Assembly: GCA_965285935.1 (NCBI GenBank) | Contig: OZ260664.1 | Span: 72,540,001-72,604,000, forward strand | DNA length: 64,000 bases | From: Ophelia neglecta | Taxonomy: Eukaryota | Direction of reading: 5' to 3' | In this document: one piece after another, positions 29,901 through 63,354 of the stretch | Numbering within the stretch: position 1 is the stretch's first letter | Layout of the letters: each line of letters begins with the position of its first letter | The notes under the pieces: model-generated | Databases searched by the model: none | What the model saw: the letters and a program-made list of their open reading frames with translations, nothing else | Told to the model about the DNA's origin: nothing | Translations under genes and position numbers: made by a program

Positions 29901-32900
29901 AGCTTAAAATTAGATGTGCAGTGGTATTTATGGCATTGTTTATGCTTGTTTTCCTGTCAGAATATTTTGATTTATCTTTCCTGCACCGATCACTAAATTG
30001 ATAAATCCATACCTGCTTTTTTGGTTGGAGTATTGGCATTCGCAATATCTTCTTCATTGTCCAATATCAATGAGTTTGAAACTGGTATGAAAACAAAATG
30101 GGACTTTTAATATTTGTTTAAAGCATGAAGATCAATTGGTCCAACTATAACTTTTTACTTTAATCTATTGTTAAAGTCCTATAAAAGAAATTGTGGACTT
30201 ATTTCATGTTTCTATGCAAAAACAATCAGTCAATTCATAATCCTTATTCACAAGTATATAAGTAGGATTATACTATTATTAAACATTTACTGTACTCAAA
30301 ACTTCTTCAATAATAATGCATAATATCATTTAACTATTAGTTTACAGCAAATACTATCAACAATTTATAATTAGTTAAATATAATATTAGTATTAGTATA
30401 GTTTAAATTATAATTTCCAAACCATCAATTTTCTTGACAAATCCGGATGGGAACCACCCTTCCTTGTCATCGATGATGCCCCTCCACCAGCCGTCTGGCA
30501 TCTTGTCGACCACTTCCACAAACCTGCCGGTCTGTAAGGTGAGCTGGTTCTCATCCTCAGCCTTGTGGTAATGTCTCACCACATAGAGCTCGGCACCTGG
30601 AACACAACACAGCATAATTGGTAAAGAATAGCACACCAAGCTACAAAAAATACACTGCCTGACCCTAGGAAGAGAACAGGAAATTGTGGTAAAAGAGTAG
30701 AGGAATGGTATGAGTAAAAAAACAATATCACCCAGAACACAGGGAAACAAGATGAAAAGTAAATTAAAACTAGGTATAAATAATCCTCTCATGGATGGAG
30801 TAACACATAGCCTATTTGGGCTTGGAGACTGACCATTAAGAATTAAGGACTGGAAGACATCTATATAGTCAAAATCAGATTCATTTAAACACTTGCCATG
30901 ACATATTTGTACATGTACATGTGATGTAGGTTTATCAAGAGTACAGTTCACTTCACTATACAGTACATATACATGTAGGTAAGAAGATTGTTAAAAAATA
31001 AATGCACACTACAATTGGACACAGAATTTAAAAATCATGTTCTATGAAGTACTAAGGCATAATAATATGCTTGTTTTTATCAAAGGATATTTGCTTCATA
31101 AAGATAAATAATCCATACTCCTGTACTCAACGCTGTATACCGCCATTAAGGGAACTGTGAGGCCACCGAGGATAGAGCTGAACAAGCCTGCGTGCTACCC
31201 CAGTGGTTAGGTAATGGCCTCAACAATTGCCCAATCATTGGTATAGACCAATATCTAAATGTCTCTATTATGTATGACAAGAGGCACTTTAAATCACTTG
31301 AAATTACATCACTCGTGGGGTGAAAAATATACTTTTATTGCAATTTGATGAGGAACATGGATATTAAATCATTGCCTGTCAAATCAGTTATGTTTTGTGA
31401 CATTTCTATTATCAAAGTATCTGTCAGGCATCAAATCTGGGACTTTTTTTAGTGAAATTTTTAGCCTAACTGATGAAACATTCAAAAGCTTATTTTTGTG
31501 TAAAAGACTGCAATGTTATGCTGTTGGGTCAGCATACAATTAGGTATTGGTCATTATCAAGTATGGTAATTAACTCCATATATATTAATTATAAATGTTT
31601 AAAGATGCCTTAATCAAATTATGGCATAATACTAAATGATTATTTTACAATTAATATGTATAAAGTCCAGAACTATATTATGCAACAGTTTGTCAGAAAG
31701 TCACTACTGTAGAGGATAATATTTTGAATGTATTAATTCTTTGCAAGGTTGTGAGACTGTCAATTTTGCAGTTGAGTGGTGAGTTTTTCAGCTTTAAAAA
31801 AATTATGCTTTTAAAACCTACCTTCCCTACTGGGCTGTCTGACCAGGATGTGAGAAATCTTTTTGTCTCTGAGAATTCCGTTGATTGGAACTCTCCCATT
31901 GCGTTCTCTCTTTTCAATTTTCTGGATATCCGACTGCGCAAAAGAAGACAAAACATATATTTAATAAATTTATAGTTTTCACATTGTAAATATGATAATA
32001 ATATCCATATTTGACTAAATATTCATTTTATGTATCACTTCTGTAATTCATATGATAACCATGGTAGCTATTTCATAATAAGAGCCACTTAACATAATTG
32101 TCACCGCCTTGTTTGTCTAGACGACCAAGAAGCTTATGGTTGATTAACTAATTAATTAACAGTCAACCTGACTGCAGTACCTCCACATATATCTGAATTG
32201 AAATACTCTGTATCCCTTGATGAGATGGCATGAATAGCTAGGAAGTGCTTAAGAATTCTGATGTGTCACAAGTTGCTGGGAATAATGAGAAAGAAGATTG
32301 AGTGGAGGCTGGGACTTCTCCAAAATAATATTATTTGTCTTTAATGGGACTCTTTGATTGAATTCAAGCATCTAGTGTGGGTAATACCCTGTCATCAGAC
32401 TTAATGTTTTGTATAATAGTCATTTTAAACCATCATTATTTCTACAGCTTCTGTGACAGCAACCAACATCAACCAATAATGTGCAATTTACCAACCCATT
32501 GAAAAGAGAACATAAAAATTTAAATCAAATAAATCTTTAGCAAACTATACGAAAAAAGGAATAAAGTTTACTGATAGAACACTTAAATAGCATACACCAG
32601 CTGCTATCAACTGGCTGCTGAGATTCAATCTTTGAGTATTGGGTGATCACTTTTGTATCCTCATGTTCACCTTTGATATCAACCATAAACGGCTCTAGAT
32701 CTGAACAGGATAAAAACTCTTTAATCTAAATATTTATATTCATAATAGTACAGAACAAAACATGAGTAGGTCTTGCTTTACTGCTTCTCAAATGTTTTTT
32801 ACTTCATCTATATACTGTGTATATAGCATAAAGTATTAAAATGATAACCTATACATGAATATCTATAACTAGCTACTTTCAAATTCCTTTTGGTGTTTGT

Positions 32901-47579: not shown

Positions 47580-50500
47580 CTAGGTATGCAGTGTTTGACT
47601 ACTGTAATTCCTTGCGTCTCTATCATGAAGAGACGCTGCGAAATTACCCTTTTCTCTTCCATTTCCTATAATCGAAAATATGAATATATGTTTTTATTCA
47701 AATAGAAATGTGCTTCTTATCCAAAGAAATAAGGGAACAGTGTTATATAGGAAATTATAAAAGTACCTTGCATTTCTTTATCAGAGATTTCCGGGGGTCG
47801 CGTCTGTTTTCCAGTATTTCGACACTTAAGGATTGAGTGGTATAAAATGAGATCCAAAACTTCTATAACAGTTAAGGCACTCGCTCCCAATAAGAGCCCC
47901 ATGTATCCTCCAACTTCACCTAAATAATTACATAACCTCAAATACATTTTATGATATGCGATGGCTTATTAATATAACTGGCATGTTCGGTTTATGAGTA
48001 AAGAATAGTTTAAAACTTACTTAAGTAATTAGGAATTTCATATTTTGGCATTTGCTCAAACACCTCATGTCGGAGTTGAGCAAAGAAAATGTCGATCTTC
48101 ATAAAGTTCTGCCTGGAAAAAGGTTTTTTTCTAATGCATATTAAATCAGTATCATATTGGATCACATTTGATAAATGGACACTGTTCAATCACAAGGTAA
48201 TTTTATAGTTATTAATTTAACAGTAATGATTCAATGCCGCACAACCACAATATTTTAACATTCATTAAGTTATCTTCATAAAAATAAGTAGTATTAACGA
48301 CACCTGACAAATGCATCATTGATGTGCAGTGAGTTTAAGTAGTTCTGCATAATTCTGTTCAGCTCATCCAGTGAATTTGTTAACTCCCCTTTTTTGTACC
48401 CTATGTCCAGTTCCAACGAAGAAAGGCTACTTCTCAACTCCCCAATATACTCCTCGAGAATTGTGTTCAAATTCGCTAATCCTGTTTCTTGCATGAATAT
48501 TTCCATAGCGGAGTGACTTCTCCACAAAGTCCTAAAATCGTTGTACACAAATTCAACGGCTGACTTGGCGTCCTCTGGCGGGACTGGTTTGAGCCATATC
48601 CGCGCTTCCATTGCGAATTTGTCCAGCCCTGGGTGTCTTGTGTATTCCTGCAGCAAGGTCAGCTGGTGAATGAAATCAGTGTACCACGTATTGATACTGG
48701 AGGCTGTGTCGGAAAGGCCAACTCGGACTGTGGTAACCATGCGCTCCGTGACGTTTAACACGTATGCATCAACCAGGTCCTCAATATCATCTATCAGATA
48801 AGAAGTTAGCAATGTTGCCAATTCACTGTACCTGGTTAAATTTGCATAATACATCAATGCATTGTCATTAATAACTTTCAAACTAGAATCTAATTGAACC
48901 CTCGTGTCTTCGATGTTAAATAAACCTGCCGCACTTCTGGTGTATTTCGACCTCAAGCCACGAATACCCTTTTCCGTTATTTTCAACCAGTTGACAATGT
49001 TGTCGAAAGTATTAGAGTAATCAGTCGTGCAGACTTTCAGCATATCTCCTGAACCTAAAAAGGCATCGACAGCTGCTGACGCATCTGCAACATCTAGTGT
49101 GTATGCGTCGCTGGAGTTACCCACATTGACAGTCATTCCGACAAGGATAGACTCCAGCCATTCAGTTACATTAAGCATGTCTCTTACAAAGTCCAAACAT
49201 TCTGCTTCCATTTCTTCTGATCGCCACATGGTCTTTACAACCCATTGGTCAGTCGACAGGGGCGCTGTTTTTATCGTATTAGAAAAGTAAAGTAAAGATT
49301 TTTTCATCATCCTTACTTTCTGCATTACATAATGTACATCGGTGTCGTCGTTTATTTCTTCAGATGAACTCGATAGGGTCAAATGTGTTAGGCCTGATGA
49401 GGCGTCTTCGAAGCTTTTAATAACAAGAACACTTATTCTTGACCAAGCAATGTTGGATTCCCTCATCTTTGCGCATATATATTCAAGTGGAACAACAATA
49501 TCTTCATTGACTACATCCAACAGTTTTAACATCGCTGACTCTGCGGTGTGAACTGTTTCAATGGTTCTGTCTGTTGAAATTAGCATTAACCGATCATATG
49601 TTTCAGTGACATTTCTGAAAGCTCCTATTGTTATTTCAAAATATGAGGAGTCCACTCTCTCTGTGATGTCCATCGCAGCCTTGTAGTCAGTACCGAGCTC
49701 TGCCCTGTAAGAATCGTCTAGCATGGAGTTGAGACTGTGTTTTGATAAGGTAGCATAAGAAAGATCGGCGCTGTACACCGGTCGAATACAAGGATCTGGA
49801 CACAAACAGCCATCTCGCTGGATTCCTGTTTGGTCTGAAGAGGTATTATGTTGATATTCAGAAACAAGCAATGTAATTATTTGGGTTGTTCTCAGAATAC
49901 ATTAACACAAGTCCTTGCGTTAATAAATTATAAAATGGGAAAATAAGTAAGACATCCTATATAAATGTAAGGTGTTTTTATGGTTGATCTGTTACCAATC
50001 AATGCTAACCAAATATATAAATTCGATTATGATTATTTACGTAAAACAATGCATAGGACATCAATGTCACGAGATCATGCTTATTGATAGATGTAAAGAA
50101 TGTCACGAGATCATGCTTATTGACAGATGTTAAGAAATAAACCAAAAAGTACAAAACTGAGATTGTTTCAGCCAATCGGATGAGATTGTAAGACCTACAT
50201 TATCATTCGTTCATGACACATATCAAGTGACATCAATTCATTTCACCAGCGGGTAAATTTACTCACATGTTGCTGGAACAGCACAGTCCAGGAATCTCGG
50301 GAGGTCACAAGTCGGATATTTATCTGTCAATGAATCACATATTTCTATCATAATTCTGTATTCAAGATAACGCAACTTAAGACCTTAATGTCGCTTCATA
50401 GATGTTTACTTATCAAAAGCACATGTTGCAACTCACTGGGCATGTACGCATCCACACAGTGACAGGTGTCATATAAGTTTTCCATCTCACACTGCCTCTG

Positions 50501-53500
50501 GCATTTAGAATATGTGTAGTTTTGACCTGGGTAGGACTCTAGGTCTATCTCCCCGCAATCGCCGTACGGGGCCCCTAAACTCTTGTACTGAAATAACATC
50601 TTCGAAGATTATTGGCGCCATTTCACAAATAAACCCTCACTAGGCGTTTCCGATTCATATTGCCTTATTCCAAAATATATTGTTACACACTTGGCTGAGT
50701 TTGACCCCGACTAGGGCATGGACACCGGGGGATAAGGCAAAACCTATATCCCTTAACAATGGTTCTTCGTCTGGAGAGTGTAACAGCACCTAAAAATATC
50801 TGGCATTCCTTTATCACCTTTACATTGATTAACACTATAACATTCTGGTTTGCTCACATTACATTCTCAGGCGCAGTTCAGGAAGCCCCACTGAATTGTT
50901 AGTCAGTGGTCGTACGTGAGGTTCGAAATTACGGTTAAAGCTAAGTGTCTAGTGATACCTTTACACCAATGTCAGTAAGAGGCCCTCTGGTGTATTGGTA
51001 CAGTTCCGTGTTGAGAAGTAAAGTCATCCCGAATTGAGAACCTGTAGATTAAATAGTTATCATTACTCACTTTCTTACTACATGTATTCTATAGGAAAAT
51101 AACTAAGACGAACAATTGAAATACGCACCTGTTTTGTTTAGGCTAAGTTGTTCATCTTTGACTAAATTCAAGGAGACGCAGAGTCCCGAGTCGGTTAAAA
51201 CTTCCTGAATGTGGTTAAGACTGCATTCTGATCCTCGCCATTTGCAGCTTTTGGAACGAATCCAAATAAATAACAAATTGTGTACTCATTATGGTACAAT
51301 CACAGCATAATTATTATGATCAATTAGATAATTCAGGAAAGCCAAACCTGTGAAGTAATTTCTGCCTCTGATGTCCAGTATATTTATACAATTCCATCAA
51401 ACTTAGTTCCTCTGTTCGAAAGAGAAAAAAACATTAATATGCATGTTTACCTTACTTGAAGCGCAATCACTATCACTAGTAATACTGAAAAATGATCTGT
51501 AATATCCCTACCAATGCAGTCGTATTTTTATACAAGTATTTGTATTCATAACTACAGAATTGTCTATCAACGCACTTCTCCGCTCGGTCTTGATATGGCC
51601 CAATTTTCCAGACTAGTGGACTGTTTTTGTCTATCAAATATACACTCCTTTTTTTATTAAAAGTGACGGTGCCCGAGTTTTCATTCACTACCCAATGTGT
51701 GTTATATATCATACTGATACTGACATTACTAGATGCTTACCAGAATTATTATTGAAGAACGCATCCAATGTAAAGACGTCCGTTTCTGACAGTCCATCAG
51801 ATGAGTCTCGAGTTTTTACCACCCCCTCAAGTTGAAGGTATTTACTTTCTCCTGGTCACGCGGTAAATAATTTCATAAGCAAATCGACTTCTATGAGAAT
51901 GGTTGCATTTTAGGAAAGTACAATCGAAATAGAATTTGAATAATTGCGAACAATTACTACACAAAAGTTAATGAATAATAGACTAGTCATCGACACTGTT
52001 GGATAAAAACCATGTTTTCCTTTACATGACATAATATGTAATGTTAATGGTGTACCAATTGTAAAGAGAAAAAGGGATCGGACACATGGCAGAAAAAGTA
52101 AAACAGTTAATCAGATAATGAATGAATATGACTTTATCGCTGAAGGAAACAAGCCTTGTGATTGTATACATCAGTACATTCAAAGGTTTTATTATTACAT
52201 AACATATACGGCCATAAATAAATGTGATCAACTGCCATCATTGCTGCCTGGAATAGATAATCTTACCTGATGTACGGTACCAAAACTGTTTTATGCAAAA
52301 TATTAAACTACTTCTACAATATAAATAAATTTTTAAACACTTACTATAATTGCAAAATCCCCACTCTCCTTCTTGTAAATAACACCAATATCCTGTAGCA
52401 CCTTCTCTTGTACATTGGGAGTATGTATTCGAACTGTACTCAAAAGGGAATGCACACTTCCCAATTTCACCATTTACCTTCGTTGCAGTTATCATACCTG
52501 ATCCTTTTACAAAGACATAAAATGTGTATCTAGAGTATGATGTACAATTCATACTAAAAAGTTCATTGGTAGAATCATATAAGGCTGATAGGAATCGATG
52601 GTCACACGTCTTGTGGTTTGAAAGACATGGTTTTGTTAGGGACAAAGAGAAATATGTGGGTCCTTGTGGCTGCTGGTTTTATGGCGCTTTCAGATTTAAT
52701 GGAATACTCTTGATAAATAATTTTGCTATGCCTGCCGGGTATAGGCTTCCGTTTTATTCTATCAGTTATTCCAGACCCATTTATTTTTATTGGTTGTGAC
52801 TTAAGATCGTGCTATTTCTTTGATATATAAACACTAATGATTGCGTTACGTCAGGCGAAACTAAATTTGTCAGAAATACTGCTGATCGGAAAAAAATGGC
52901 ATGAAGTCGACAAAAATAGCGTGGGGCTAAAAGTACACAATTTCGAACATACCCCGGGAAAAATGTTATTACATATTGAACCGGGTAGGGACAAAAGCGA
53001 AGACAGTGTACGTGAAAAATAATTTTTTTATATCAAGGAAAAAATTACAGAAAGGAGGGTTATGCCATCGGCTCTTGTTATTTTACCTTTACGTTCCTTT
53101 CAAGGGCGAATACCTCACAATTTTCACTATGAGTCCAATATTAACTTTAAATGTTTTATCGGTTTACCGGTTTAACATATAACGTGTTCTCTTATGTATA
53201 TATTTGCTACCTGCGTTTCATATATACCAACCAAATAGGCAGTAGCCCCATTTTCTTCCAGTGTCGAAATTTGACGTTGTGCTGCACCAAAATCGGCCTG
53301 TCATACTTTGCCAATTTGTACATCTGTCAAATATCATTCCATCGAATTCAAATGGAAAGTGGCAATACTCGCCATTGTCCGACAGGATTTCGCCTATCAA
53401 TTGAATTAGACTGAAGTGATAGTAAACCTTTCTCGGTAGAAAGTGGTTTAAATAATAATTTGCAAATAACGTGTGTATTACCAGGGCACACTACGTTTGC

Positions 53501-56500
53501 CTTCTGTCATTCTCTTTTGAACAAGTGATTACTTTTAAGTACATTAAATCATGTTCTCTGCGATTATCATTTTAGTTAATGACTAAAACATTTATCTCAC
53601 CTGCAGATGCGTTGACATATCTATTAGTATTTGTAACTATATCAGACACTCCATCAAGACCAACGTAGGGCACTGTGACGTTTGCGGAAAGAAAATACCA
53701 TTCATAGGTGTCATTGATTTGAGGCATCATGTTTTAACCTCACCAAGGGCTTGATACGAACATCTTAAAATTGAATCGCTCACCCAATTTACAATATCCC
53801 CAGTTACCATCGGTGGTTTCACACCAATATGCGACACGCTCTGTCTTGATGCATTGATGAAATGATTTGCCATTATGTTCAAATGGGAATTTACAAAGTC
53901 CAATACCAGTAGTTCCGTCAAATGCCTCTATCATGCCTGTTTCTAAAGTTAATGGGGGAAAACAAATAAATGTATTTTTATGAATATACATTGTAATGGT
54001 TGAATTCAAGTTGTATAAACTGTTGAAAATAACATACCGTACAAACACCGGCCCCAGCCTCCTATTTCATATTCTGAGTTCAACGAACACCAAAATCTTG
54101 AGGAATCGATGTTGGTACATTCGTGGTAGATTCGATGGTTATACACGAAAGGGAAGACGCATTGCTTATTGTTCGCAGTTGTAATATTAAGATGTTCCGG
54201 CTTTTTATTCACATTATCTGTAATGGCTAAAGCAGAATATTGATGTATTTTTCTAAGGCCTAACTCCGATATTTGGTCACTTCGAATGTTACACAAAATG
54301 ATTATTTTACAATGGATTATGTCTATGCAACAGACTGTACTGGATTTGAGAAATGTACCTTTCTCGTTGCCGTAATTCGAATTTTTTTGTGCCGGAACCT
54401 CTGAAAATGTAGGCAAGTTGTTAAGCAATTTTCTATTCGAATTGTGATCCGTGGCTTTTCCTTGTTAAAAAACGTTTTAAAGGTTTAAAATACACATACG
54501 AAACATAATATTTGCGAGTCCCCCGCCGCAGGATCATGTATGAAAAGGTCATTCTCAACAGGTTATATTACTCATGTAAGACGGTTATCCTGGACCAAAT
54601 AGTTTCAAGATTTGACAAATATTAAACAAGTTGAAAATTTACTCAAAAGATCTGGGTCAACAAGTCACAGAAAGGTCGTAGGTCATTTTTTTATGGTGCC
54701 ATTGAATTCATTGACCTCAATTTGGTAGAAGCTGATATATTACATTAAAAGATTGGATCATTAGTTCAAGGTCATACTAGAAGGTCAAAGATCACAAGTG
54801 ATCCAAAATATCAAAAGGCACAACTACATGATATGCACATACACTATAAGTGTTTTCGTGTGGCTACTATAAATAAATTTAGCGATCTGCTCCGGAAACG
54901 AAAAACAGATCCAGAGGCCACGGTTCAGAGGTCAAAGGGCACAGGCCAAAAAATAGGTCAAGTGCTGCATGCCAGTACTAAGATGATATCACTCATGTAA
55001 GATGGTTGTTCTGGATCAAATAGTTTCACGGACGGGCGGGCGGACGCGGCCTAAACTAGTAGTTTTCGGGGGGCGGGGGACTAATATTTTTACCAAAATT
55101 TACCAAAATTTACCAAAGATTTACCAAAGTTACAATATCCAAAATTGATGTTATCTTTGTCAGTGAAACAATAAGATCTCTCGGTAGAGTTTTCGTAGAC
55201 ACATTGTTCGTGTATTTCGCCATTTACCACAAAAGGAAATTTACAGCCAGCACCAAACGCACTCCCTCCCGATGTTGAACTTATCATGCCAGTTTCTGCA
55301 ACCCAATAGAAAATATAGAGAAACAGTATTTGCATATACATATATGACGTATGTACTCCGACGTCAAACTGTATGATGTCCACTTTATACTTACTGTATA
55401 TACAATTTCCCCAGTGTCCATCAATGTCGTAGTTAGTAGTTGTGGCACACCACTGCTTTTTGGTGATATTGTGCTGCAAACAGTTTTCATGGCTGGTTCC
55501 TTTGTAGATAAACGGAAAAACACAAGGCGCACCATTTGCATTTCCGCCTTTTGTGAATACGGGAGATAGCTCTATTGGAAAAGAAAGTTCCAAAGTTATT
55601 GATCATGTTGAAAACATAGACGAGCAAGCAGTCTGTTTACAGTTTTGGAGCAAGCGGTTGATGTTTTGTGGGTTACAGTTACTAGTTAGACGAAAAAATG
55701 TCCCTATCAGATAATACTTACCATAGACACAAGTTCCTTCAACTCCTTTGTGGTGCCTGTGTATACTACACCAAGGCTCCGGCCTAGAGGGCGTGATGAT
55801 ACAACCGTAATGCACTTCTCCAGCGAACATGAACGGTATCTGACAAGGAGCACCCCGAGATTCGTCTTCGTCCTTTGTGTACACCAGTGAAAACTCTGGA
55901 CGGAATAAATATAGCCAATGAATAAAGCAATGTGGAGTATAGAACGCATGCCAAATAAACAGAGATATAACGCTTTCACCAATCACCTTTAACAGGGCAA
56001 CTTCCGTCCACGATTTCGATGTTCATAATATCTACGATGAGGGTTGAAGATGAACTGACTGTTATTTGTACACTGTGATAACCTTTGCCAATGACATCTA
56101 GGTATGCCAATCCTTTGATATAATTAGATTGCGTTACAGCTCCGTTCAAACTAAAAACTCTGTGCAGTTCTATGTTATCACTCAGAGCAGAAACACTCAA
56201 CTCGTGTCGATGATAAAGTTCATTCCTTTTTAGGACTGTCAAATTGTATTTCACATAGACACAGGTCTTAGAATTGCTACTTTCTAGCTTTAGCTTAGGT
56301 GAGATCGTGGAAACTGTTGACAAAACTGGTTCGCCAGATAAATTTGCGGTCAAGTGTCCATCTAGCAATTAGAAAAGGGGTTTAGGCACAAAATAAATTG
56401 TTTTCTAACAGCTTATTTGTTTTCAAAGTTTCGGTTACATAAGAAAGAAACGCACGTAAACCGTCAGTGTCCTTCATGACTCGAAAGAAGTCTCTGCCCT

Positions 56501-59500
56501 TCGAAGCATCGAAGAAATCAACCATGTTTAAATGACCAAACTCCGTTGACATTTCAAATGGCACTAAAATGCATTTAAACGTTAAGACTTTCTTGTACAT
56601 TCAGTGTAACTTGATTGATATTCGCTAGAAAGCGAACAAAACATGTTTAAAGAGATTCAGATGTCCACAACAAACATATCCTCAAAGATAAACCTACCCT
56701 TGATTCCACATTTGCCAGCTTGAAGCTTATAATACTCTACGAATGCATCATAGACGGACTTGGAATCCTTCTTATGCATGATATCTACCAGTGTCATGTA
56801 CTTTCCAGGCTCTATATCCCAAGACACTCTTCTTGACTCGAATGTTTCTACTTTATAACTAAATAAGCTGTATAGTATTTGTCTAGACTCGGCAAGAGTT
56901 ACATTTAAGAAAACGGGTGCCCGAGGCTCAAGAATAACGTAAAGACAGTGTGATGCATTGATAAAAAATTCATCAAGAATTGCCACAGATCGTTTGTCAA
57001 AATGTATGTCACCAGTTCCTGTGTAAACTGCAGCCAGTGTGACTCCTGGAACTAAAATATGAAATAGAAGGAATGTGAATAATGAATATATAATGACTGA
57101 TTAATGTCAACATTAAGTTATATTCATCTTGGTAGACTTTATCACAGATAATAGTTGACCTTCAATGTCCTTTGTGGTCACCGCTTGATATGTAGCAGTA
57201 AATCCTCCTTTTTCCACACTAAAATCTGATGCAAATATCATTTTGATGATATTACTGGGTGACGTTGTAGACCACTGCCCACGAACTCCGCATGTTTCTG
57301 CTAACTCATTTGACGCGTCCATCAGGTCGATTCCTTCATAAATCTGTTTTAGAAAGACGAAAGTAACATTGATATTTTTTAATATGTGTCCTTAATGACA
57401 CTAAATGAACACTTTCTAATAGTTATCGTCGGAATTTTTCGCTTCGAGTTTCTTCCTCCTTAATGTCAAACTGTATTGTAGATACAACCACTGCCATATT
57501 AACTGACATACAAACCAACATCCGTGCCCTAAGCAGGACAATTAAGTAATTACCTCTGAAAGGTAGCAAAGAAAAGGAGGTCTGTTCTAAACTCTCCAAA
57601 TAACCTAATGTGGATTAAATGATTTTGCTATGTCTGCGGTCATCCATGCCCGTTTTTTTTTCAAACTGGAGGTTCAATGTGCATGCCTTGTTATTAATTT
57701 TCTTGTATTTACTTTTAGAAAATCCCTTTGCTCGCAGTCTTCGTCGGTTTTCTGCTTTCTCTCTTCCAATTCGAATGAATGAAATTTCAAGTGTATCCTA
57801 TAGTGTTTCGGCAGATGAATATGATAAAGACATCTCATGTCGGGTGGGTATGTAGTTTTGCCATAAAGCCTTGGAGAGCGAATCACTCCACTGCGATTAG
57901 TGAAATACCCACCACAGTCTAGATGAAAATGTAAATCATGGCAATATTAAAATTCGTCTGGGGGAAACGCACATGTACATGCATAAGAATGTGGTATTCG
58001 TGCCGCAATACTCGAATTGATACAAGCGCCTGGACACGAAGCGTATTTGCCATTACGTACCACGTAAGCAAAGCCCGAGACGAGAGGCATTTGGGGTTAA
58101 GCTGCACCAGAAAACACTCCCTGATCTTGTCTTATTTTCTATACACGAATTATATTCCATCCCGTTGAATGTGAATGGAAAAAGACACTGTTCTATGTGT
58201 ACTGCCGACTTGGTGGTTGGAATTGCCCAGATCTGTGTCTCCTCTAAATCTTAACAATGAAATGGTTTGAACTATATATATTTTGTAAAAAGAAAAAAAA
58301 TCAGCTTAAAATAATCGTATCAGGCTTAAATCGAACAGGTTGAAAACCGGTGAAAACGGAAGTACACAAGATTCTGTTTACATACCTGGTTCACAATACT
58401 TCCATTGAGAAGATGAAAATGTATAGTTCGTGGCACACCACGGAGATACAGTTTTAGATGCAACACAGCCAAAGTATTCAACTCCTAGGTATAAGAATGG
58501 GAAGACACATTCGCCATCAGGTTTTTCCTTCCAATCTTCAGCCGATATGTTTTGCAGTCCTAGAACGAAGTGTGTTAAGGTCAATATAAAATTCACTTTC
58601 CAAAAATGAAGAAGTGTTATCCAATTTATCCAAGTTTAATCTTATAAACCACCGAATCTGTCAATTAAATCAATACAAATATTTAAAAACCATTCTACCA
58701 CCATTCGTCGTATTTTGATCCAATTGTTGTCCACCAAACTCAGAGTTCCAAATAAACTGCCAGTTGAAGAAGAAGGAATTGCCTGCGTTTCGCTGTTCTT
58801 CAAAAAGATCGGCTGACACGGGCTGGTCAGTAATTTCTTAAAAGGCCATATGAAATGATTGAAAATAATTGTACGCAAACATTCTGATTGTCAAACCAAA
58901 CTGAGCTTGCCTGCCAATGGGAAATTTACATTATATCTACCATTTCGGATGTCAGAATGTCCCTTGCATTCTCCAGGATAGTAGGAAATGTCTGAGAGTC
59001 CAATATGGCTATCAGCGGATGCGATCTGTCCTTCAAACCATATTTGGTAAGTGCCATCAGGCAGAGTCAACTCGGCCCTTCTCCATCTAGTGTCGATAAA
59101 TCGTCTGCTATAAGACCAAATTGCACTGCTTTCTGGCAGGATTGTGTCTTTAAATTTCCTGCGCACTATCAACCTCAGAGGTTGGAAGGACGCCTTCAAA
59201 TCCCACAGTAAAAGATAAAAGGTGAGACATCCTGGCTGAAAGGTGTTGGACGGAGACAATAACCAAGCTTTGTCACCAGCGTCTCCGAGATACGACGAAA
59301 CAAGCAAATAATCCACTGAAAGTCGAAATAGACTAAAGTTCTTCTTATTGCTGATAAGGCAATGATACTTGTGAGACAAAAGTCAGTAAAATAAGTATTA
59401 TTGACACATGAATTGCTCACATATATAACGTTTCATGACTTTAGTCAACGAAAACAACCTTAATTGAAATATGAAAAATCAACAACCTTGGTACTGTTTT

Positions 59501-62500
59501 AAACCATCAGGCAAGGAGAATATAGAGGCTTTATCTCGCCTCCTCTCCCACTTTAATCCTACAGTTGCTGTTCCCTCGACATAGTAACCGCATTGGAAGT
59601 TATCAGAAAAAGTACAGTTGATGCTGGTCATAGAAGCTGTCACACAGAGCATAAGTGAAGGAAAAGTAAACATAAATATGCGTGAAAGTATGCATTTCTA
59701 AAAATTTAATGATTGAGCTAATCGTCCAATAGTTATTTTGGAAGTCAAATATTCCGATCTAGTAGATAATATTCTTCATTGGGTAGAGCCTACAGGTAAC
59801 GGTCTAGGTTAAGTGAAAATGATGTAATTTCACGCCTTATGGTTTGTTTGCGGCGTAGAATTTACTTTACTGTTAATAATCTACTTGCTGCTGAATTTGA
59901 TATTTATTATAGGCAAAAAGAATTACCACAAGGTTCTAACTCGTCGCTTCGGTCCCCACAGTCATCATGCGAATCACATGTATAAACACGGGGCAAACAA
60001 AAAGCATTGACACACCTGAAATAGCCTTCCAAACACTCTGCAGGACAATGGTTTGTTAGTAGTTAAAACTCTATACAGAAAAACATATAATGTGTAGTGT
60101 GTATCCTGAATAACACTCAACAGCAATAAATAAAGGGAGAAACGAAGATGTAATATTTAGTTCGGTTCAAACTTGACCAGAGTAAGAAGGTAATCCCGTA
60201 TGCGGCTGTAGCTATTGGGCGTGTACACTCTTCTCTCCTATCAATTACGGAGTTAGGGCTTCAACAGACCTAGCTCAGGTGTTGGCGATGTTTTCAACCT
60301 CGATCCAGCCTTTTCGTCTTCTTTATTTTGTTTGTATGCATTCCTTTTTGATTTTGGTGTGTTAACTCTTTGCTCTTCATTACATGTATTACACAGTATA
60401 AAAACTATGATTTAATTTTTGCTTGTATATGATTAGTCTGCACTGGAGCTTTGTGGTCTAATGTATTTTTTGCAATGATTCAGTTTGTTCTTATATTGAG
60501 AGTCACTATCTATATAGTGTTCTTGTTATTTAATGTTTGCAAGTAATTTGTATTTGTTGTTGTAGTTTTTGATACCTCTGTAACTGGTAACATGTGCCAG
60601 GTAGCAATGGCTGGCCTGTGTACTGTAAGTAGGCCTATTATCGCCTCTCGGTTATCTACTCTCGTTTTTTTTCTTTAAACAAAACTCGGATTAGGCACAC
60701 CCCCTGCGAATATCACAGCAGTGTGACTTTCTTATATTACCATTACTTCAATATCGACCTCTAGCATAATCTTTAGGTGAATGTGTTAATAAAAAGATAC
60801 AAACCAGCGAATGGAATATCGCAGGTCTCATACTCTCCATCTGGTTCGGTAAAACAACCAGGGCCCTCTTCTGATACAAACGGATTACGACAATATGTCT
60901 TTGTTACTTTTTCTCCACCTTGTGGTTCTAACTGTATCCCAAATTCTGTTAGTTCTCTGCTCCACTCTCGACACGGAGATCCACTGATGGAGGTACTTAT
61001 ACTTCCGTCATAATCAATTCCCAGTCTGTCTCTACGATGTCCTATTACGAAAAGACTTGATATGAGTGAAGCGAATGATAAAAAGTCTGAATGAATACCG
61101 CTATAAAAATGATGATACAAATCAACATTTAAAATGGTCACAGCAGGTTAACAATTGAATACTATCGACCTCCTGGACTAGTCTATCGTACCAGAAAGCC
61201 CCTGTGACGCCTGTCTTCGGTGCTATAATGCCCCACATATTATTCATTCTTATACAATAAGGCTCGAGGTGACAAGTCAATGTAAGAAGATCGAAAATAA
61301 GACATTTATAATTAAACCTTACCAAATGTTGAGCATGCTCGGACCAAGATGTCATCAATTGATATGCCGCTGAGTTGGTAAGGTGTCCGCTGCGCAGAAA
61401 AAGTAATGCGGTGATTGCCGGGTGGCAGGCGTATAAATACACGGTACCAGCCGACACTTATTGTCCCTTCAGATATATACAGTTGGGAACGCTTGAGAGA
61501 CTCGTCTAGGACGGTTAAATCAAGAGTAGGGGGGTCCGAGGACGTGTGATAATACAATTCCAAACATGAATTATTTGTCGCATAAAAAGTGCTCGTAGTC
61601 AAGCTGTATGGTTTTGGCGAGTGTTCCGTGGCATCTTCCAATTGTAAGACAAAACCACGCCCTGCAAAGTAACACCTTTATGAAAGTATAAACCTTGGTT
61701 AGGTGGAGCCCATGATGGTGTTTTATGTTTTACTATATTGCCATAAAAAGTGGCCAATAAGTGTTTTTTTGCATTCTACGTTTCCGCTACAGCAAACGCA
61801 TGGCTTTGTAAGGGTCATAATAGTTGTTACCAAAACCTTCTGCGTGAGCCATCGGTACATCTGAGAGGTTTTAAATAAAAGAAAGTGCTAACCAAAAAAA
61901 AAAAACAATAGCATATTGAATTTGTTGCATTTATATTGTTTACACTTTTTTGAGATAACAGATGCACAGGGAACTACAAAACCTGTCATCTGGTCGATCA
62001 TTTGATATTACCATCAGTTTGTTAACCTTGAATGCATTTATTTGTGAATAAGGTTTAATTAATATAATTATTTTTTGAGGATTATTCTAAAGTATTAATA
62101 ATGCACATAGTAATACGAGGTTTTGACATGACCATGACGTTATGTACCGTCATCGGCCCAGGTACCTGATCGAGTTGAATGGTCGTGAGCGATGGCCCCA
62201 CCAACTTTCTTTCTTGCCCAACTTAGTTTAGTACCAATGTACGATTTCTTGATGAATGGACACTCCGACTCAGTCTCGAAATCACACATAAAGTTTGGTG
62301 GGGCTACAATGTAAATGAAATCACAGATGAGGTTTGGTGGGGCTATAACGTAAATGAAATCACTTATGAGGTTTGGAGGGGCTATAACGTAAATGAAATC
62401 ACATATGAAGTTTGGTGGGGCTATAGCGTAATTGAAGTTTACCATTAATGAAAGTTATTTAAGCAGACATAACTATATGAGAATTATATAAAATAAAATA

Positions 62501-63354
62501 TATTAAGGCCATACCTGTACATCTTATTCTTTGAAAGCCCCTTGCTGGGACACACGGCTGCCTCGTGACCTTCAATGAGTGCTGTGTGATGATACAAAGC
62601 CTCCTCAATGTGTCGAATTCTGTCCTGCTGCACGTGTCATTGAACACAGTCAGACACAATGCCTGACAGACGGCGAGAGATACTTCCTTGAACACGCTGG
62701 TTTCGTTGTTCCAGTGTCCAGGGGGCAACATACATACCGTTCCTAGTGGGTGCATGCTGTCTTTGCACCTCCCTAAAGTAAAATACCGTCAAAAAACCGT
62801 GATGCATTTTAAGAATTTTAACACGTGCACTGTGCTTTCTTTCATTGTTCTCTTTACATTGACAAAAACAAGCCTGCCATGAGTAGCAGTCATAGCTGTT
62901 TATTGGATCTGGGTCCGTCTAAGTACGTACTTGCTTTGTTGCAAAATAATACGTTACCTTTTTCATGTGGGAGACTACCATTTTTTTTGCCGGAAAAAGT
63001 TGTCGTAAAATCATCAAATAGTCCTAATTTTTGGAGAGAAGTCAATCTGGAACGTCCAAGAAAGGTAAATATAACATATGCTGTATTCCTGGAGACACCA
63101 TTATAAATGCAAGAGTGCTTGAGCAGTAGCGGCAAAATCTTTCAAATTTGGCCACCATAAAAAGGCAAACATATGGGATTATGTACCTGAAGAAGTTTTG
63201 ATTGCAAATGGTGACCGTCGGAAATGTCAGACTCTCCACATAGGACACTTCTACATTTACCGCCTTGGGATTTGTTCTGAGGTACAGCAGACGGTCAATT
63301 GACAGATACACAAATGTGATGATAGATCCGACAACCACAAGAAACCAAATCAGT
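47580..63354 (-). CDS. Giant DEG/ENaC (ASIC-like) channel subunit with multidomain ectodomain, 5'-partial, ~34 exons, >2300 aa
   Basis: TM1 + FPTVTICNQN (63354..63187), 63046..62958, module exons 62772..52345, then channel core: ELYKYTGHQ (51411..51348), CKWRGSEC...TDSGLC (51247..51129), GMTLLLNTE (51041..50959), VLLHSPDEEP...GFALSPG (50789..50691), Cys-rich thumb (50587..50437, 50323..50267), 49834..48304, RQNFMKIDIFF (48112..48021), TM2 SEVGGYMGLLLGAS (47919..47767), last exon 47665..47580. All junctions GT-AG and phase-consistent. Confidence 0.9.
47767..47919 (-). CDS. DEG/ENaC TM2 exon with GAS selectivity filter
   Basis: (S)EVGGYMGLLLGASALTVIEVLDLILY. Confidence 0.96.
48304..49834 (-). 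CDS. Channel exon containing the end of the thumb, beta11 and a ~450-aa helical insert
   Basis: Starts CLCPDPCIRPVYSADLSYATLS, continues with amphipathic Pro-poor sequence and ends DAFVR, spliced to QNFMKIDIFF. Confidence 0.9.
50063..50136. repeat. 36-bp tandem duplication in an intron
   Basis: aatgtcacgagatcatgcttattga(t/c)agatgt(a/t)aag twice. Confidence 0.85.
52345..55895 (-). CDS. Array of seven fibronectin type II exons (55895..55722, 55571..55395, 55295..55125, 54226..54038, 53942..53784, 53393..53232, 52503..52345) plus linker exon 53672..53601
   Basis: Each has C-x-F/I-P-F...C...W/Y-C...G-x-C; all phase 1-1 with GT-AG ends. Confidence 0.9.
54500..55085 (+). mobile_element. Non-autonomous Helentron/HINE-like element in a channel intron
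   Basis: Internal repeat actcatgtaaga(c/t)ggtt..ctgga(c/t)caaatagtttca at ~54570 and ~54991, many aggtca/tgacct motifs, acggacgggcgggcggacg microsatellite near the 3' end; agtcccccgcc (~54516) is inverted to ggcgggggact (~55072-55082). Confidence 0.55.
55987..57051 (-). CDS. Two divergent MAM-like modules (exons 57051..56698, 56563..56462, 56361..55987)
   Basis: Phase 1-1 exons of MAM-like size with C-L/V-Y, G-x-Y/H and terminal G-x-C motifs; divergent, so the domain assignment is tentative. Confidence 0.55.
57160..57918 (-). CDS. CUB domain (exons 57918..57713, 57343..57160)
   Basis: CGGYFTNRSGVIRSP...YPPDMRCLYHI...FHSFELE...C..DFLKIYEG...CG...FASDFSVEKGGFTATY. Confidence 0.93.
58386..58559 (-). 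CDS. Fibronectin type II domain exon
   Basis: CVFPFLYLGVEYFGC...PWCATN...WKYC. Confidence 0.92.
58941..59636 (-). CDS. MAM domain 2 (exons 59636..59487, 59315..58941)
   Basis: NCTFSDNFQCGY...W; KAWLLSP...CLTFY...WRRAELTLPDGTYQIWFEG...IGLSDISYYPGEC. Confidence 0.9.
59927..60037 (-). CDS. LDL-receptor class A domain exon
   Basis: ECLEGYFRCVNAFCLPRVYTCDSHDDCGDRSDELEPC: 6 Cys plus DCxDxSDE; phase 1-1; not in the ORF track. Confidence 0.93.
60805..61041 (-). CDS. Kringle domain exon (degenerate)
   Basis: GIDYDGSISTSISGSPCREW...YCRNP...GPGCFT...YETCDIP. Confidence 0.88.
61323..62303 (-). CDS. MAM domain 1 (exons 62303..62166, 61661..61323)
   Basis: CDFETESEC...W...DHS; CLELYYH...GWYRVFIRLPPG...ISIDDILVRAC. 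Confidence 0.88.
62278..62433 (-). repeat. Four 39-bp tandem copies of the MAM-1 exon acceptor junction
   Basis: atttacgttatag|ccccaccaaacctcatctgtgatttc x4; candidate exon starts at 62420, 62381, 62342, 62303. Confidence 0.92.
62515..62772 (-). CDS. PAN/apple-like domain exon of the channel
   Basis: VSLAVCQALCLTVFNDTCSRTEFDTLRRLCII: C-x3-C-x7-C-x11-C PAN core; phase 1-1. Confidence 0.7.
63187..63354 (-). CDS. DEG/ENaC TM1 and post-TM1 exon
   Basis: RLIWFLVVVGSIITFVYLSIDRLLYLRTNPKAVNVEVSYVESLTFPTVTICNQNFFR; FPxxTxCN family signature. Confidence 0.95.

What the first reader, a model, noticed from the sequence alone, without database searches (positions are those of the whole stretch)
48304..49740. 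Second insert: ~450-aa helical domain in the knuckle position of the same channel
Seen: between YSADLSYATLS (beta11-like) and RQNFMKIDIFF (beta12-like) there are ~480 residues in one exon. They are Pro-poor, heptad-like (e.g. LRSSLSSLELDIGYKKGELTNSLDELNRIMQNYLNSL) and carry several N-x-S/T sequons. Established: in ASIC1 this segment is a short knuckle helix of a few tens of residues at the top of the trimer axis. Inference: three copies could form a tall helical stalk or cap over the vestibule that scaffolds the finger antenna or transmits force. Its single-exon form contrasts with the shuffled finger insert and implies a separate origin.
Basis: partly seen in the sequence, partly recalled or inferred. 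Interest (0 to 1): 0.7.

Follow-up and report, generated by a model that had tools for sequence, protein, structure and literature searches.

The report
Sodium channel with tall helical tower
This animal gene for an ASIC-like sodium channel carries about 460 extra amino acids in its small outer 'knuckle', predicted to fold into a tall rigid helical tower; the tower is shared by a large, apparently unstudied family of worm and shellfish channels and likely lets them sense contacts or ligands far from the cell surface.

Summary
A 1,531-nt open exon (48304-49834, minus strand) puts 479 residues between palm strands beta10 and beta11 (not beta11/beta12) of an ASIC-like DEG/ENaC, about 460 of them inside the alpha6-alpha7 knuckle loop. 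The insert is under purifying selection (dN/dS roughly 0.24-0.36 between paralogues). It has 220 database relatives and folds confidently as a monomer (pLDDT 90.6, pTM 0.84): an all-helical, elongated bundle with a four-helix tip and a conserved cysteine pair, with no clear PDB match. It is not peculiar to this gene. This genome has at least 20 long-knuckle channels, and named relatives come from Capitella, Intoshia, Owenia, Pecten and Mytilus. At least 8 paralogues and the bivalve proteins lack the finger cassette, so the tower is probably older and does not exist to scaffold it. The single-exon argument fails, because 7 of 20 copies have introns in the insert. Function is inferred: most likely a stiff lever or antenna coupled to the palm. 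No RNA evidence was found, and the trimer test gave no verdict. Ten paper searches found no description; two unchecked notes of this scan report the family in other genomes.

The parts
48304..49834 (-). Large coding exon (1,531 nt, phase 1 to phase 2): end of thumb, beta10, alpha6, knuckle tower, alpha7
   Evidence: no indel or joint inside it in three DNA contig sets of one sample
49743..49775 (-). beta10-like palm strand (YSADLSYATLS)
   Evidence: ASIC1 alignment of the Pecten relative; PMC9052164
48330..49718 (-). Knuckle insert proper (about 463 aa, residues 39-501 of the modelled stretch), predicted all-helical tower
   Evidence: AlphaFold2 with 101 rows, pLDDT 90.6, pTM 0.84; 220 relatives at E<=0.001
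49023..49451 (-). Four-helix bundle (residues 128-270), inferred to be the distal tip, with conserved C212 (49197-49199) and C268 (49029-49031), a probable disulfide
   Evidence: structure-search matches centre on this range; each Cys in 95% of 101 rows
48819..48851 (-). Conserved turn motif Y-x2-N-x-T-K-x2-L-A (here YYANLTRYSEL), the most widely shared internal motif
   Evidence: Y328 in 90% of rows; anchors the profile matches to bivalve and divergent paralogue inserts
48585..48599 (-). Conserved IWRxP motif (here IWLKP) of a small mid-tower subdomain
   Evidence: W413 in 80% and P416 in 86% of rows with a residue there
48021..48112 (-). beta11-beta12 exon (RQNFMKIDIFF...KYE)
47767..47919 (-). 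TM2 exon with intact GAS selectivity motif and a small residue (Ser) at the degenerin site
47580..47665 (-). Probable last coding exon (short cytosolic tail)
   Evidence: splice signals and stop read from sequence; inferred
50267..51285 (-). Palm, beta-ball and thumb exons of the channel core (5 exons; upper limit approximate)
52241..62788 (-). Finger cassette: PAN-MAM-kringle-LDLa-MAM-FN2x2-CUB-unassigned (weak VWD hit)-FN2x7, many small exons (limits approximate)
   Evidence: Pfam for PAN (weak), MAM, kringle and FN2; LDLa and CUB named from motifs and from Capitella P0042
63045..63389 (-). Open frame holding the TM1/beta1-beta2 exon; the first coding exon, with an intact TLHG motif, lies about 2.6 kb beyond the window end
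   Evidence: PF00858 E=3.5e-14

Best explanation
The exon encodes a conserved insert of about 460 residues in the alpha6-alpha7 knuckle loop of an ASIC-like DEG/ENaC subunit, predicted to fold into a rigid helical tower that likely acts as a lever or antenna passing contact or ligand binding far above the membrane down to the palm and gate. Shown: the open exon, its position, its conservation, its selection and its family. Predicted: one self-contained bundle per subunit, with long helices at 40-156, 241-329, 344-395 and 443-501 and a four-helix bundle at 128-270 that holds a Cys pair. In this subclade a finger cassette of adhesion and binding modules was probably added later.
For: Paralogue dN/dS is 0.24-0.36 in the five pairs with a finite value, with dS near saturation. 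8 of 11 allelic changes in the exon are synonymous, with no indels. 220 relatives at E<=0.001, 30 at <=1e-10. A profile of external hits over the core alone scores Capitella 137, Intoshia 116 and Owenia 66 bits, against a best decoy of 5.6 among 305. Insert length is 462-479 in five named proteins. The model reaches pLDDT 90.6 and pTM 0.84. beta10 lies at the three-fold axis, links thumb to knuckle and affects ENaC gating (PMC9052164, passages). The FaNaC knuckle forms part of the ligand cleft and tolerates an insertion in the same loop (PMC11474038, PMC11026163, passages). HG and GAS motifs are intact. An orthologous two-insert architecture is kept in the orthonectid parasite Intoshia.
Against: No functional, expression or splice data. 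In FaNaC1, alpha6 is static during gating (PMC11026163, passage), which argues against the knuckle as a moving lever. Tower sequence is very divergent (12-20% identity to most relatives), as a mere spacer would be. Core homology of the bivalve and several divergent in-genome inserts is weak: without three bivalve-like rows, Pecten scores 1.4 and Mytilus 8.1 bits; hhalign gives 84.6% over 90 columns; and only 3 of 13 divergent paralogues clearly beat all 336 decoys. Two of the four closest paralogues are broken in the assembly.
Confidence: 0.45

Rival explanations
1. The tower is itself a soluble-ligand sensor: a peptide or small molecule binds between its helices, or at the conserved mid-tower subdomain (D111, Y397, IWRxP, W437), and shifts the long helices, as in bacterial chemoreceptor helical sensor domains.
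For: The best Foldseek row is the McpZ ligand-sensing domain (E 0.016, TM 0.21-0.29). Conserved polar and aromatic residues stand out in an otherwise variable domain. At least 20 diverged paralogues in one genome fit a chemosensory expansion.
Against: The structural matches are not significant and are of the generic helical-bundle kind (best VIA Z 13.9 to a de novo bundle, rmsd 3.8 over 158 residues). The conserved residues may be purely structural.
Confidence: 0.25
2. The tower is a passive structural element (spacer, adhesion or anchoring post, cap over the upper vestibule, or assembly and subunit-choice module), and gating comes from protons, ions, proteolysis or the finger.
For: Low sequence conservation with conserved length; static alpha6 in FaNaC1 (PMC11026163); knuckle deletion in alpha-ENaC alters Na+ self-inhibition rather than force sensing (PMC9052164, passage).
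Against: A confidently folded 460-residue domain with conserved motifs seems more than a cap needs, and it is joined directly to two palm strands.
Confidence: 0.27
3. The stretch is not part of the mature protein: a retained intron, a captured foreign ORF or an assembly artefact.
For: No RNA confirmation was obtained.
Against: Purifying selection; canonical in-frame splice sites; 25 of 70 database hits of 430-660 aa start and end at matching motifs; annotated full-length proteins in five genera contain it; contiguous in independent DNA contigs.
Confidence: 0.03

Closest known systems
ASIC1/ASIC2 and BASIC (ASIC5), clade A DEG/ENaC (PDB 4nyk, 6ave, 6l6p, 9mky)
   Same: Best PDB sequence matches for the relatives P0086 (ASIC1 217, BASIC 170, FaNaC 115, ENaC 99 bits) and P0042. 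TM1/TM2, HG, GAS, Cys-rich thumb, and beta10-alpha6...alpha7-beta11 are all present.
   Different: The alpha6-alpha7 loop is 6 residues in ASIC1 against about 460 here. ASICs have no finger cassette. Proton gating is untested.
FaNaC insertion II (alpha6-alpha7 knuckle insertion; PMC11474038 passage; PDB 7yvb, 8on7)
   Same: An insertion in the same loop; the knuckle takes part in ligand binding.
   Different: FaNaCs are clade B and score lower. Their insertion is far shorter (size recalled, not measured), and no homology was seen.
Uncharacterised database proteins: Capitella ELU13130/R7VBR3, Intoshia OAF70867, Owenia CAH1775107, Pecten XP_033762490, Mytilus CAC5415199
   Same: Insert at the same site, 462-479 aa. 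Capitella and Intoshia also carry MAM-kringle-LDLa-MAM finger modules and group with this gene (79/86 support).
   Different: Bivalve proteins lack the cassette, and their core homology is weaker. The Owenia protein has a LamG-like N-terminal piece instead. All are annotated only as hypothetical, CUB-containing or degenerin-like.
Bacterial chemoreceptor helical sensor domains (McpZ 8f7n), talin/vinculin bundles, Tweety ectodomains
   Same: Stacked four-helix bundles on long helices.
   Different: No significant match (E>=0.016, TM<=0.29 for the top rows); resemblance of shape only.

Membership tests
DEG/ENaC superfamily (PF00858) | Two TM helices flanking a large ectodomain | tested here: met
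   PF00858 on the TM1 exon, E=3.5e-14; collinear core exons through TM2
DEG/ENaC superfamily (PF00858) | Pre-TM1 HG motif and TM2 GxS filter | tested here: met
   TLHG exon just beyond the window; GAS in the TM2 exon
DEG/ENaC superfamily (PF00858) | Cys-rich thumb | tested here: met
   thumb exons with the conserved Cys pattern
DEG/ENaC superfamily (PF00858) | Trimeric, amiloride-sensitive cation conduction | not testable with these tools
   needs expression and recording
ASIC clade proper | Falls inside the ASIC clade in a tree with reference ASICs | not tested
   No reference ASIC sequences were in the tree; only PDB ranking of relatives favours the ASIC/BASIC side
ASIC clade proper | Short two-helix knuckle | tested here: not met
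   about 460-residue insert
ASIC clade proper | Proton activation | not testable with these tools
   no electrophysiology
FaNaC/WaNaC | Closest relatives are FaNaC-type channels | tested here: not met
   relatives score about 100 and 65 bits higher with ASICs than with FaNaC; the genome's intronless channels, taken as FaNaC-like from recalled features, lie on a long separate branch
Long-knuckle lophotrochozoan subfamily (defined here) | Homologous 460-600-aa helical insert with the A-x-E-x3-R start, Cys pair and Y..N.TK..LA turn | tested here: met
   window core 149 bits against an external-hit profile, best decoy 7.8; motifs (this gene has TR for TK)
Long-knuckle lophotrochozoan subfamily (defined here) | Single origin (monophyly on the channel core) | tested here: inconclusive
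   26 rows form one clade, but with 46.8/81 support; AU test does not reject it, p=0.75
Chemoreceptor helical sensor domains (HBM/HTM type) | Significant structural match over most of the domain | tested here: inconclusive
   McpZ E 0.016, rmsd 18

The most novel reading that the evidence does not exclude
A large, undescribed lophotrochozoan class of DEG/ENaC channels has a built-in tower about 14 nm tall that reaches matrix, mucus, cuticle or a facing cell and gates the pore directly; in annelids it was joined by a modular adhesion cassette in the finger. This would be a self-tethered mechano- or contact-gated DEG/ENaC, making the tether model of degenerin gating testable in one polypeptide.
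Probability: 0.3. Interest if true: 0.85.

Novelty: new variant of a known kind. Interest (0 to 1): 0.62.

Why it matters
In the solved DEG/ENaC structures matched here the knuckle is small. This family grafts a folded domain about as long as a whole ASIC subunit onto the two palm strands nearest the trimer axis, and it has multiplied to at least 20 genes in one genome. If the tower gates the pore, it gives a direct handle on how force or distant ligands open these channels. If not, it is still a new extracellular domain without a Pfam model, and a blind spot in the surveys of the family that I searched.

Tried and rejected
Word-index homologue searches found nothing, although the full HMMER scan found 220 relatives; those blanks reflect low sensitivity. 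The ESM Atlas gave one weak ASC lead, then nothing. PDB sequence search of the insert gave only chance coiled-coil hits. Fold searches gave no Foldseek match at E<=0.001 and only generic four-helix bundles; this does not show that the fold is new, and the lower bundle was not folded or searched alone. Trimer prediction of residues 24-345 gave no verdict: score 0.00, alignment unused, fold uncertain. No RNA holder was listed; the three runs laid showed genomic-type cover and no splice joints. A three-sequence profile could not link the divergent in-genome inserts to this one; a deeper profile linked only some. Motif searches in the eLife 81613 alignment supplement were uninformative because its rows are gapped and cut, so long-knuckle sequences may be in that tree unremarked. 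DiaaNaC (PMC11750451, part 1 of 6 and passages) shows no mention of such an insert. Rejected: scaffold for the finger cassette as the primary role; single exon as proof of origin.

Full report
Observation. The minus strand has a 535-codon stop-free frame at 48297-49901. Canonical splice sites bound a 1,531-nt exon, 48304-49834, which joins in frame to the last thumb exon and to the RQNFMKIDIFF exon. 479 residues lie between YSADLSYATLS and RQNF; the stretch is 1.3% Pro and has 5 sequons. The gene runs from a first coding exon with TLHG about 2.6 kb beyond the window, through TM1 and a PAN-MAM-kringle-LDLa-MAM-FN2-CUB-FN2 finger cassette, to the core, this exon, beta11-12 and TM2 with GAS. The flanking strands are beta10 and beta11: beta10 links thumb to knuckle (PMC9052164, passages), and NFMKIDIFF aligns to cASIC1 402-411, ahead of the L414/N415 linker. 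In the Pecten relative, 463 residues replace 6 of ASIC1 between alpha6 and alpha7.

It is coding and selected. Four close paralogues carry the insert at 26-53% identity, and all 5 genes have the finger cassette. dN/dS over the insert is 0.24-0.36 in five pairs and undefined in one; dS is near saturation, so these values are rough. Three DNA contig sets of one sample show 11 substitutions in the exon, 8 of them synonymous, and no indel. No RNA run was available. Two paralogues are broken in the assembly: one has an in-frame stop, the other a frameshift and a 5' loss in this exon.

Family. A profile of three inserts found 220 proteins at E<=0.001 among 1.84 billion; many of these match only the N-terminal flank. 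Of the 150 listed, 70 are 430-660 aa long, and 25 of those start and end at the same motifs as this exon. Of 30 proteins looked up, 6 carry an organism name: Capitella, Intoshia, Owenia, Pecten (with an Argopecten cluster member) and two Mytilus. The wider range is therefore unknown. Insert lengths in five of them are 462-479 (one odd Mytilus model, P0131, was left out). Core-only scores are strong for the annelid-side proteins (137, 116 and 66 bits; best decoy 5.6). They are weak for bivalves once three bivalve-like rows are removed (8.1 and 1.4 bits; hhalign 84.6%, E 7e-6, centred on the Y..N.TK..LA turn). In a 101-row alignment C212, C268 and Y328 are nearly invariant, and R59, D111, P199 (Val in this gene), IWRxP and W437 are well kept. 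A PF00858 scan of the own genome (93 of 478 candidates scored) and fetched stretches showed 15 more genes with a long open frame at the knuckle, making 20 with this clade. There is also a frameshifted copy and one probable member seen only by its start motif. Only 3 of 13 divergent inserts tested clearly beat all 336 decoys; the rest are linked by position, length and motifs.

Order of events. At least 8 of those genes have 2 kb or less between the TM1 exon and the post-finger exon, too little for the cassette, against 12 kb or more in the four cassette-bearing genes where that exon was placed. Pecten shows only PF00858. On a 287-column tree of the channel core (37 rows, inserts removed, rooted on three intronless channels), the 26 long-knuckle rows form one clade with weak support (46.8/81). 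The 7 cassette-bearing rows form a nested clade (79/86). A quick tree did not recover either group as a single change, and an AU test does not reject the long-knuckle clade (p=0.75). So the tower probably predates the annelid-mollusc split and the cassette came later; this is likely, not proven. Seven of the 20 genes have introns inside the insert, so exon form is no evidence of origin. The host is probably an annelid, judged from the orthologues only.

Structure. With 5 rows AlphaFold2 gave pLDDT 71; with 101 rows, 90.6 and pTM 0.84. Helices run 40-156 (with two short breaks), 163-192, 206-235, 241-329, 344-395 and 443-501, with a small subdomain at 396-442. Structure searches pick out 128-270 as a four-helix bundle, and one talin bundle aligns across 52-508 (134 residues, rmsd 2.9), consistent with a second, lower bundle. 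I infer an up-down-up-down tower of about 13-15 nm; the coordinates could not be measured. No match is significant. The domain folds as a monomer, so a simple three-chain coiled coil is unlikely; how three towers sit together is open.

Mechanism. Both ends of the tower run straight into beta10 and beta11. beta10 lies at the three-fold axis and affects ENaC gating (PMC9052164). FaNaC has its own insertion in this loop and uses the knuckle in its peptide cleft (PMC11474038, one passage), though its alpha6 stays still on opening (PMC11026163, passages). I put a lever or antenna at 0.45, a passive spacer, cap or assembly role at 0.27, a soluble-ligand sensor at 0.25 and an artefact at 0.03. None is tested.

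Literature and novelty. Ten full-text searches (listings only) returned no paper describing the tower. Passages were read in PMC9822975, PMC10507113, PMC9949801 (plus part 1 of 32 of its alignment supplement), 10.1101/261990, PMC11750451 (part 1 of 6 and passages), PMC11026163, PMC9052164, PMC11474038 and PMC8675884; none of the passages mentions it. The library lacks most subscription journals, and figures and other supplements were not seen. The sequences are public but unannotated. Two unchecked notes of this scan describe the same kind of channel in other genomes; they agree but are not independent support. Verdict: real, a new variant of a known family, mechanism inferred.

Noticed in passing
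window 52241-62788 (-): Finger cassette with the same module order in four paralogues; MAM-kringle-LDLa-MAM also in Capitella and Intoshia. One paralogue (G000:C7 60.93-60.95 Mb) has lost several FN2 repeats. A segment at 55979-57100 has only a weak VWD hit and is conserved at 22-57% identity.
   Followed up: partly
L002:2029-2031; L005/L006: Two neighbouring paralogues in a tandem trio are broken inside the knuckle exon in the assembly (an in-frame stop; a frameshift plus 5' truncation): pseudogenes or assembly errors.
   Followed up: partly
L031-L034 (G000:C7:72.18-72.22 Mb): A cluster of apparently short-knuckle DEG/ENaC genes with long Pro/Thr-rich mucin-like repeat frames (up to 500 aa); L060 has a Pro-Gly-Thr repeat frame. 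These may be a different kind of ectodomain extension.
   Followed up: no
L025-L028 (G000:C2:21.50 Mb and C3:0.55 Mb): A cassette-free long-knuckle gene has a partial tandem duplicate of its last exons and a frameshifted near-copy on a 2-Mb contig, possibly a haplotig.
   Followed up: partly
L030, L042, L043: The genome holds about 19 single-exon DEG/ENaC genes, some with a roughly 100-aa insertion in the thumb; taken as FaNaC-like from recalled features.
   Followed up: partly
P0094, P0142, P0011: Some relatives carry an extra Thr-rich or low-complexity stretch inside the tower (817 aa in P0094), so the tower tolerates further insertions.
   Followed up: no
window 30403-30990 (-): Exon with an SH3 domain (PF07653, E=2.7e-9) of a separate downstream gene.
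   Followed up: no
window 48036-48054 and 50617-50636: Two 19-20-base stretches each match another 3-kb contig at nearby places, suggesting that a further paralogue in the sample shares these exon ends.
   Followed up: no
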